Assembly (NCBI RefSeq): GCF_000026545.1
Contig: NC_011601.1
DNA length: 64,000 nt
From: Escherichia coli O127:H6 str. E2348/69
GTDB lineage: Bacteria > Pseudomonadota > Gammaproteobacteria > Enterobacterales > Enterobacteriaceae
Reading direction: 5' to 3' (one strand)
Below, piece after piece: positions 46,255-46,792 of this stretch; positions within the stretch are counted from its first letter, which is position 1; each line of letters starts with the position of its first letter. Made by a program: the position numbers.

Positions 46255-46792
46255 CGCAACCGCACAGTGCATTACGCAGTCAGGTACGCGGGGCGATTAT
46301 TCCCGGCCTGCTGGGCGTTGGCGAACCGTTGATTTATGGCGTCACCCTGCCCCGCATGAAACCGTTTATTACCGCCTGTTTAGGCGGCGCGGCGGGCGGT
46401 TTGTTTATCGGATTGATAGCCTGGTGGGGTCTGCCGATGGGCTTAAACAGCGCCTTTGGGCCGTCTGGTCTGGTGGCGCTGCCGCTGATGACTTCCGCAC
46501 AAGGCATCCTTCCGGCAATGGCGGTTTATGCTGGCGGGATTCTGGTGGCATGGGTTTGCGGGTTTATTTTCACCACGCTCTTTGGCTGCCGTAACGTCAA
46601 TCTGGACTGATAATATGAAACGGACAATGCTCTGTCTTTCTCTGCTGGCTGTCAGCTGTAGCGTCAGCGCCGCAAAATACCCTGTTCTGACAGAAAGTAG
46701 TTGATCAAGTGTATGCGGCGTTAAAGCAGTAATAAAAAGGCCAGTCAGTTGTGTTACTGGCTGGCCTTTAATCATCGAATCAGAAACGATTA

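What the first reader, a model, noticed from the sequence alone, without database searches (positions are those of the whole stretch)
46611..46789. Only a short remnant where yfeW (PBP4B) is expected
murP and yfeX are separated by ~180 bp here. That space contains a 29-codon ORF with a clear signal peptide (MKRTMLCLSLLAVSCSVSA) that stops abruptly, followed out of frame by a short coding tail ending in a stop. This is the pattern of an internal deletion joining the 5' and 3' ends of a gene; from K-12 gene order the missing gene would be yfeW.
Basis: partly seen in the sequence, partly recalled or inferred. Interest (0 to 1): 0.4.

Follow-up and report, generated by a model that had tools for sequence, protein, structure and literature searches.

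The report
Deletion remnant of PBP4B gene
The 179-bp gap between murP and yfeX holds the fused first 28 and last 11 codons of the penicillin-binding-protein gene pbp4b (yfeW), left by a 1,184-bp deletion that about a quarter of fully sequenced E. coli share; it is an ordinary loss of a non-essential gene.

Summary
The window is E. coli E2348/69 (100% identity). Between the murP stop (46610) and the yfeX stop (46790) lies a 29-codon ORF (46615-46704). Its first 28 codons are the start of pbp4b/yfeW. From 46697 the sequence continues, one base out of frame, with pbp4b codons 423-433 and the stop (46730-46732). The convergent-gene terminator hairpin (46736-46769) follows. Compared with intact alleles, 1184 bp are missing at a 2-bp GT microhomology. 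The missing part holds the whole beta-lactamase-fold domain and all catalytic motifs. The same junction occurs in 1274 of 5426 complete E. coli genomes, including CFT073, S88, ST131, ABU 83972 and also E. coli B and C. Their flanks differ and are mosaic, so this is one old deletion kept or spread by recombination. The remnant is decaying neutrally: its private changes are 6 nonsynonymous and 0 synonymous. RefSeq already marks it as a pseudogene, though only as 'hypothetical protein'. That deletion is shared by 1046 genomes and leaves murQP without its regulator. Interest is low.

The parts
46615..46698 (+). 5' arm of pbp4b/yfeW: start codon and codons 1-28 (signal peptide plus the first residues of the mature protein)
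   Evidence: It aligns without gaps to intact alleles up to 46698: 138/139 to MRSN346647 and 133/138 to K-12, including the end of murP. tblastn finds K-12 PBP4B residues 1-29 here, E=6e-11.
46697..46698 (.). Deletion junction: the 2-bp GT shared by both arms (microhomology)
   Evidence: The left arm matches the intact allele to 46698 and the right arm matches from 46697. The intact contexts are GAAAGT|TCGCC and GGTTGG|GTAGTTG.
46615..46704 (+). 29-codon remnant ORF created by the deletion (codon 29 and the TGA come from the 3' arm read out of frame)
   Evidence: RefSeq annotates 46615-46701 as a pseudogene, 'hypothetical protein, missing C-terminus'. It has no Pfam hit.
46697..46732 (+). 3' arm of pbp4b: codons 423-433 (VVDQVYAALKQ) and the TAA stop, in frame +1 relative to the ATG
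   Evidence: It is contiguous with the downstream sequence, 151/154 to MRSN346647. tblastn finds residues 423-433 at 100% identity.
46736..46769 (.). Retained stem-loop between the convergent murQP(-pbp4b) and yfeX units; probably a bidirectional intrinsic terminator
   Evidence: It forms a 14-bp stem, -24.5 kcal/mol on the + strand (z -6.3) and -20.3 on the - strand (z -5.4), followed by a U-run on the - strand. It is present after intact pbp4b in K-12 and MRSN346647. The strict terminator scan did not list it.
45186..46610 (+). murP, intact (474 codons): upstream neighbour and operon partner
44286..45182 (+). murQ, intact (298 codons): first gene of the operon
46790..47689 (-). yfeX, intact: convergent downstream neighbour
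44135..44195 (-). Remnant of the 3' end of murR (44135-44183, decayed, with a 10-bp gap) and the junction or filler (44184-44195) of a second deletion of about 872 bp. This deletion removes murR and about 73 bp of the murR-murQ intergenic region.
   Evidence: Alignment to MRSN346647: the window matches L008 up to 9213 and resumes at L008 10086, while murR occupies 9155-10012. The same allele occurs in 1046 genomes.

Best explanation
The interval is the scar of an internal 1184-bp deletion of pbp4b (yfeW), the third gene of the MurR-controlled murQ-murP-pbp4b unit. Shown: the deletion joined codon 28 to codon 423 at a 2-bp GT microhomology and shifted the frame. A 29-codon ORF remains, consisting of the signal peptide plus 10 residues, and it stops 6 nt past the junction. 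The whole beta-lactamase-fold domain (residues 44-412) and the SxxK (S102), YSD (203) and HTG (371) motifs are gone, so no PBP4B can be made. murQ, murP, yfeX and the hairpin between the convergent genes are untouched. Inferred: the event was a single illegitimate recombination or replication slippage, with no mobile element involved. It happened once, long ago, and the allele has been kept or moved between lineages by homologous recombination, which explains the mosaic flanks. Because PBP4B is a low-abundance, non-essential, redundant class C PBP, the loss is tolerated and the remnant decays neutrally. In this strain and in the classic ExPEC/B2 strains the repressor gene murR is deleted as well, so murQP is probably expressed without MurR repression.
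For: Both arms align to intact alleles at the orthologous position, the junction was mapped to the base, and 1184 bp are missing. The intact gene lies between murP and yfeX in K-12, MRSN346647 and EM20-18-50. K-12 PBP4B matches NCBIfam NF002968 'PBP4B' at 890 bits (cut-off 385) and Pfam PF00144 over residues 44-412; the remnant has no hit. All catalytic motifs lie at residues 102-371. 1274 of 5426 genomes carry the short allele and 4153 carry the internal segment, which is nearly a perfect complement. The junction is the same in ten sampled carriers, counting the window, though one of them, Z1323CEC0015, differs at the junction base. Junction probes match 1149, 122 and 1 genomes, 1272 in total. 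The flanks are mosaic. Private substitutions in the remnant are 6 nonsynonymous and 0 synonymous, against 0 and 3 between intact alleles; Fisher p=0.012. PBP4b is one of eight redundant class C PBPs, is made at about 20-30 molecules per generation and is not essential (PMC4916385). pbp4B is co-regulated with murQ and murP by MurR (PMC9177960). The murR deletion is shown.
Against: Nothing contradicts the deletion reading. Some points remain open. No outgroup species was examined, so the claim that the intact state is ancestral rests on reading-frame and domain logic. One carrier (Z1323CEC0015) has T instead of A at the base after the junction and G instead of A at 46708, which would also fit a second event offset by one base. 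I did not individually verify that the E2348/69 genome has no second pbp4b copy; this is inferred from the complementary counts. Constitutive murQP expression is inferred from K-12 delta-murR data and has not been measured in this strain.
Confidence: 0.96

Rival explanations
1. The 29-codon ORF is a maintained, functional small gene. It could encode an exported 10-residue peptide, or act as a translationally coupled element that stabilises the 3' end of the murQP mRNA.
For: The ORF starts 2-4 nt after the murP stop and is open, with the same length, in all eight distinct short alleles examined. It keeps an intact signal peptide.
Against: Every private substitution seen in short alleles changes an amino acid (Y7C, V13I, A20T, P23T, T26I, S28G; 6:0), whereas intact alleles differ only synonymously in the same codons (0:3; p=0.012). 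A 90-nt ORF staying open is expected by chance. There is no Pfam or Rfam hit.
Confidence: 0.03
2. The deletion arose independently several times at a mechanistic hotspot, rather than once.
For: The short allele sits in very different backgrounds (the B2-type strains, ETEC4079, E. coli B and C, Z1323CEC0015), with flanks up to 4% divergent. Z1323CEC0015 has a junction that can be read as shifted by one base.
Against: The microhomology is only 2 bp, and no repeats or mobile elements flank the breakpoints. The deleted length is the same, 1184 bp, in every allele. A linked derived A at 46708 is shared by all sampled short alleles except Z1323CEC0015. Mosaic flanks are what recombination around a fixed heterology produces.
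Confidence: 0.05
3. The short form is ancestral, and the full-length gene of K-12 arose by an insertion into it.
For: No outgroup was examined here.
Against: The 1184 bp would have to insert so as to create a perfect 433-codon ORF with a complete beta-lactamase-fold domain (PF00144, residues 44-412, E=4e-69), reusing an existing signal peptide and C-terminal tail that lie in different frames in the short form.
Confidence: 0.01
4. The gap is a sequencing or assembly artefact in this record.
For: None.
Against: The same junction is present in 1272-1274 independently assembled complete genomes.
Confidence: 0.005

Closest known systems
pbp4b (yfeW) of E. coli K-12: penicillin-binding protein 4B, NCBIfam NF002968, Pfam PF00144
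   Same: It occupies the same chromosomal position (murP | pbp4b | yfeX). The first 28 codons match (27 of 28 residues identical; Y7C here), as do the last 11 codons, the stop and the downstream hairpin.
   Different: Codons 29-422 are absent and the arms are out of frame. There is no domain, no catalytic serine and no possible enzyme. K-12 also has one extra C-terminal codon and a REP-containing insertion of about 184 bp after the gene.
RefSeq/PGAP pseudogene H4J01_RS25335 in E2348/69, and equivalents such as C_RS30290 in CFT073
   Same: It is the same 87 nt, already flagged as 'incomplete; missing C-terminus'.
   Different: It is annotated only as 'hypothetical protein'. The annotation gives no link to pbp4b and does not recognise the 3' arm.
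MurR regulon of K-12 (murR divergent from murQ-murP-pbp4b)
   Same: murQ and murP are intact and in the same order. In K-12, pbp4B is de-repressed together with murQ and murP in a murR mutant (PMC9177960).
   Different: Here both outer members, the repressor gene murR and the last gene pbp4b, are deleted, and only about 90 bp of the intergenic control region remains upstream of murQ.
AmpH / AmpC and the other class C PBPs (paralogues with the same fold)
   Same: They share the beta-lactamase/transpeptidase-like fold with intact PBP4B (AmpH E=2e-16, class C beta-lactamases about 1e-10). Their DD-peptidase roles are redundant (PMC4916385).
   Different: They are encoded elsewhere. They are only the likely reason why loss of PBP4B is tolerated, and they are not related to the remnant itself.

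Membership tests
PBP4B (NCBIfam NF002968; Pfam Beta-lactamase PF00144) | Full-length match to the family profile above the curated cut-off | tested here: not met
   The remnant (29 aa) has no Pfam hit. The K-12 orthologue scores 890 bits against a cut-off of 385, and matches PF00144 over residues 44-412. That region is entirely deleted here.
PBP4B (NCBIfam NF002968; Pfam Beta-lactamase PF00144) | Active-site motifs of serine DD-peptidases: SxxK, Y-x-N/D, K/H-T/S-G | tested here: not met
   In the intact protein these are S102-N-T-K, Y203-S-D and H371-T-G. All lie within deleted residues 29-422.
Orthologue (by position and descent) of pbp4b/yfeW | Lies between murP and yfeX, and both ends align to the intact gene | tested here: met
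   the 5' arm is 138/139 and the 3' arm 151/154 to MRSN346647, and the neighbours are the same.
Orthologue (by position and descent) of pbp4b/yfeW | N-terminal export signal of the periplasmic enzyme | tested here: met
   Residues 1-19 are identical to K-12 PBP4B except Y7C. That it functions as a signal peptide is inferred, not predicted with a tool.
Pseudogene formed by internal deletion | A contiguous loss relative to intact alleles, with the reading frame disrupted and no mobile element at the junction | tested here: met
   1184 bp are missing (2 mod 3), with a GT microhomology, and the junction is a direct fusion of the two arms.
Pseudogene formed by internal deletion | Relaxed selective constraint on what is left | tested here: met
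   6 nonsynonymous and 0 synonymous private changes in short alleles, against 0 and 3 in intact alleles; p=0.012 on a small sample.
MurR-repressed murQP-pbp4b unit | Divergent murR repressor gene and its operators upstream of murQ | tested here: not met
   murR is reduced to about 49 decayed bases, and about 73 bp of the intergenic region are deleted. The positions of the operators within the retained 90 bp could not be checked, because Jaeger & Mayer 2008 is not held.
Known non-coding RNA families (Rfam 15) | A match to any covariance model in 43900-47900 | tested here: not met
   No match at E<=1.

The most novel reading that the evidence does not exclude
The loss of both outer members of the MurR regulon, the repressor gene murR and pbp4b, around an intact murQP could be an adaptive rewiring in the ExPEC/B2 lineages. 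It would give constitutive scavenging of N-acetylmuramic acid without the accessory DD-peptidase. On this reading, the persistence of a single pbp4b deletion allele across distant phylogroups (the B2-type strains, E. coli B and C, and others) reflects positive selection and recombinational spread rather than neutral drift.
Probability: 0.1. Interest if true: 0.4.

Novelty: already known. Interest (0 to 1): 0.15.

Why it matters
It matters only modestly. It shows that the set of penicillin-binding proteins is not uniform in E. coli. EPEC E2348/69, the major ExPEC lineages (CFT073, S88, ST131, ABU 83972) and the laboratory B strains (the BL21 family) and strain C all lack PBP4B through one shared deletion. 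That is relevant to PBP-profiling experiments, to comparisons of K-12 with BL21 or UPEC, and to resistance-gene callers that list 'PBP4B' as a variable gene. It also points to an annotation improvement: these 'hypothetical protein' pseudogenes should be named pbp4b. The co-occurring murR deletion suggests that MurNAc catabolism is unregulated in B2 strains, which is easy to test.

Tried and rejected
- **Literature:** searches for yfeW or PBP4B with pseudogene, phylogroup, uropathogenic or CFT073 found no paper describing the deletion. Word-start matching of 'murR' and 'murP' mostly returned Murray and Murphy.
- **Operator map:** Jaeger & Mayer 2008, which maps the MurR operators and promoters, is not held. 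I therefore could not place the operators in the 90 bp retained upstream of murQ, and an inverted-repeat search there found nothing.
- **Consensus scan:** it did not list the 46736-46769 hairpin because its T-run rule is not met on the + strand. Its promoter-like hits were at chance level, 3 found against 2.5 expected. The hairpin was confirmed by folding instead.
- **Rfam:** no family in 43900-47900.
- **B2-specific marker:** I first thought the deletion was specific to B2. This was rejected when the same junction turned up in E. coli B, E. coli C, ETEC4079 and EC0026B, all of which keep murR.
- **A at 46708 as a universal marker:** rejected, because Z1323CEC0015 has G.
- **Outgroup scans:** I ran no further search on outgroups, because frame and domain logic already fixes the direction of the event.

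Full report
**What is at the coordinates.** murP ends with TGA at 46608-46610. yfeX, on the minus strand, occupies 46790-47689. Four bases after the murP stop, an ATG at 46615 opens a 29-codon ORF, MKRTMLCLSLLAVSCSVSAAKYPVLTESS, which stops with TGA at 46702-46704. In the +1 frame, 46697-46729 reads VVDQVYAALKQ, followed by TAA TAA. A strong stem-loop lies at 46736-46769, with folding energies of -24.5 and -20.3 kcal/mol on the two strands and z-scores of -6.3 and -5.4.

**Identity of the window.** The region is 100% identical to E. coli E2348/69. RefSeq annotates 46615-46701 there as a pseudogene: 'hypothetical protein; incomplete; missing C-terminus'.

**Test of the interpretation.** In K-12 W3110, MRSN346647 and EM20-18-50, a 433-434-codon gene, pbp4b (yfeW), lies exactly between murP and yfeX.
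- Window 46560-46698 matches the intact MRSN346647 allele 138/139, up to codon 28 of pbp4b. Window 46697-46850 matches 151/154, from codon 423 onward through the stop, the hairpin and the end of yfeX.
- The two arms overlap by the dinucleotide GT. The intact contexts are GAAAGT|TCGCC and GGTTGG|GTAGTTG.
- 1184 bp are missing. This is 2 mod 3, which explains the frameshift and the stop 6 nt past the junction.
- tblastn of K-12 PBP4B against the whole window finds only residues 1-29 and 423-433, at these places.

**What was lost.** K-12 PBP4B matches the NCBIfam equivalog NF002968 'penicillin binding protein PBP4B' at 890 bits against a cut-off of 385, and Pfam Beta-lactamase PF00144 over residues 44-412. 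The SxxK (S102), YSD (Y203) and HTG (H371) motifs all lie in deleted residues 29-422. The remnant has no family hit, and there is no Rfam match in 43900-47900. So no PBP4B can be made from this locus. According to the literature, PBP4b is one of eight class C PBPs with overlapping DD-peptidase roles, is synthesised at about 20-30 molecules per generation and is not essential (PMC4916385). That makes the loss unsurprising.

**Distribution.**
- Of 5426 complete E. coli genomes, 1274 have the contiguous short allele and 4153 hold the deleted internal segment. The two classes are almost perfectly complementary.
- A 50-bp junction probe that intact alleles cannot seed matches 1149 genomes. A probe from the EC0026B variant of the junction matches 122 more, and the Z1323CEC0015 variant matches one. 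The total is 1272.
- Sampled carriers include CFT073, S88, an O25b:H4-ST131 isolate, ABU 83972 and UPEC_U013. From my own knowledge these are phylogroup B2, as is E2348/69.
- Carriers also include ETEC4079, EC0026B, E. coli B strain C2566 (T7 Express, BL21 lineage), NEBExpress and E. coli C. From my own knowledge, B and C belong to phylogroup A.
- The deletion is therefore not a B2 marker. It is a species-wide presence/absence polymorphism.

**One event or several.** The junction and the deleted length are identical in all ten sampled carriers, counting the window, although their flanks differ by up to 4%.
- A derived A at 46708 accompanies the deletion in all of them except Z1323CEC0015. Intact alleles have G there, a synonymous CAG/CAA difference.
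- The flanks are mosaic. The window follows the common B2 haplotype up to about 44.5 kb and beyond about 47 kb. From about 44.7 to 47.0 kb it is close to ETEC4079 (short allele) and MRSN346647 (intact allele). The 120 bp around the junction are identical to UPEC_U013.
- ETEC4079 and MRSN346647 encode identical MurQ and MurP proteins but differ in having the deletion.
- With only 2 bp of microhomology and no repeats or mobile elements, recurrent identical deletions are unlikely. I infer one old event, with homologous recombination shuffling the flanks up to the heterology.
- Z1323CEC0015 has T instead of A at 46699. T is the base that follows GT in the intact left arm. This could be a point change, a conversion tract ending one base further along, or a second event offset by one base. 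I cannot distinguish these.

**Is the 29-codon ORF functional?** It is open in all eight distinct short alleles examined. However, all six private substitutions change the amino acid (Y7C in the window and ETEC4079, V13I, A20T, P23T, T26I, S28G). The intact K-12 and MRSN346647 alleles differ only synonymously in the same 28 codons. The counts are 6:0 against 0:3, Fisher p=0.012, on a small sample. This fits neutral decay. The ORF may still be translated, since it abuts the murP stop, but nothing suggests it is maintained.

In K-12 the unit is murR, divergent from murQ-murP-pbp4b. MurR represses murQ, murP and pbp4B, and deleting murR speeds growth on MurNAc (PMC9177960).
- In the window only about 280 bp separate ucpA from murQ. 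The stretch 44135-44183 is the decayed 3' end of murR, with a 10-bp gap. 44184-44195 is the junction or filler. From 44196 the sequence resumes 90 bp upstream of the murQ start. About 872 bp are missing, including the murR start and about 73 bp of the control region.
- This allele is at least 99% identical in 1044 of the 1046 genomes that carry it, and murR is present in 4379 genomes.
- Among 14 genomes examined, 8 lack both genes, 3 lack only pbp4b, 3 have both, and none lacks only murR. About 228 genomes (1274 minus 1046) should be murR+ with pbp4b deleted.
- O170:H18 CFIAFB20120266 additionally has a frameshifted murP.
- I infer, without measurement, that murQP in this strain escapes MurR repression.

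**Comparison with what is known, and verdict.** This is a positional orthologue of pbp4b reduced to a pseudogene by internal deletion. It fails every test for a functional PBP4B. It is already flagged in RefSeq, though unnamed. I found no paper that describes it, but the absence of the gene would be visible in any pan-genome table. The feature is real but ordinary, so interest is low. The points worth keeping are the breadth of the allele (23% of complete genomes, including BL21-family and major ExPEC strains), its single junction on mosaic backgrounds, and the paired loss of murR.

Noticed in passing
window 44135-44195 (context 44006-44285): murR, the repressor gene of murQP-pbp4b, is deleted. 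Only about 49 decayed bases of its 3' end remain, and about 73 bp of the murR-murQ control region are also gone. The same allele occurs in 1046 of 5426 genomes (CFT073, S88, ST131, ABU 83972). The retained 90 bp upstream of murQ differ from intact-type sequences at about 10 positions.
   Followed up: partly
window about 44700-47000: This is a recombinant tract. Here the window differs from other B2 strains by 4-8% per 250 bp but from ETEC4079 and MRSN346647 by only about 1-2%. Outside the tract the pattern reverses. The 120 bp around the pbp4b junction are identical to UPEC_U013.
   Followed up: yes
L017 (E. coli B C2566) 4443-4529; hits H169-H180: E. coli B derivatives (T7 Express, NEBExpress, B-ZidR) and E. 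coli C carry the same pbp4b deletion junction, with K-12-like flanks and three private changes next to the junction. They keep murR. The BL21-family expression strains therefore lack PBP4B.
   Followed up: partly
L016 (Z1323CEC0015) 6184-6233 and 3591-3801: This is the only genome with T instead of A at the base after the junction, G at the 46708 position and an extra codon in the tail. It also has the murR deletion junction, but with intact-type flanking bases. It could be an early form of both deletions, a recombinant or a second event.
   Followed up: partly
window 41637-43186: A 1.55-kb insertion between cysP and ucpA is absent from UPEC_U013, ABU 83972 and MRSN346647. It encodes a 457-aa IS4-family (Tn5-like) transposase at 41802-43175 (NCBIfam NF033590 at 514 bits; Pfam Tnp_DNA_bind and DDE_Tnp_1).
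   Followed up: partly
window 51268-57224: A 6-kb island between hemF and eutR is absent from the three relatives compared. It holds a 1149-aa SNF2 helicase with a weak, sub-threshold SWIM zinc-finger match and a DUF3670 domain (51980-55429, minus strand). That helicase resembles ZorD, DpdE and SCO1167-type helicases but scores below every curated cut-off. The island also holds a 425-aa protein with a DUF1963 C-terminus (55513-56790) and a 223-aa ORF with no family hit (51312-51983). It could be a defence or mobile island.
   Followed up: partly
L001 (K-12 W3110) 4310-4548: K-12 has about 184 extra bases between pbp4b and yfeX. They contain REP-like palindromes (GCCTGATGCGCTACGCTTATCAGGCC; GCCGGATAAGGCGTTCACGCCGCATCCGGC) bracketed by two copies of the terminator hairpin. 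K-12 PBP4B also has one extra C-terminal Lys codon. Neither feature is in the window or in MRSN346647.
   Followed up: no
L011 (O170:H18 CFIAFB20120266) 3015-4438: In this strain, which lacks both murR and pbp4b, murP is also annotated as frameshifted. That suggests the MurNAc uptake pathway is decaying further in at least one lineage.
   Followed up: no
L008 (MRSN346647) 14886-15344: An IS200/IS605 tnpA is inserted between yfeX and yfeY in the intact-allele strain. It is absent from the window.
   Followed up: no
window 46634: Codon 7 of the remnant is TGT (Cys) in the window and in ETEC4079, where all other alleles, intact or deleted, have TAT (Tyr). This is one of the nonsynonymous changes that indicate relaxed constraint.
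   Followed up: yes
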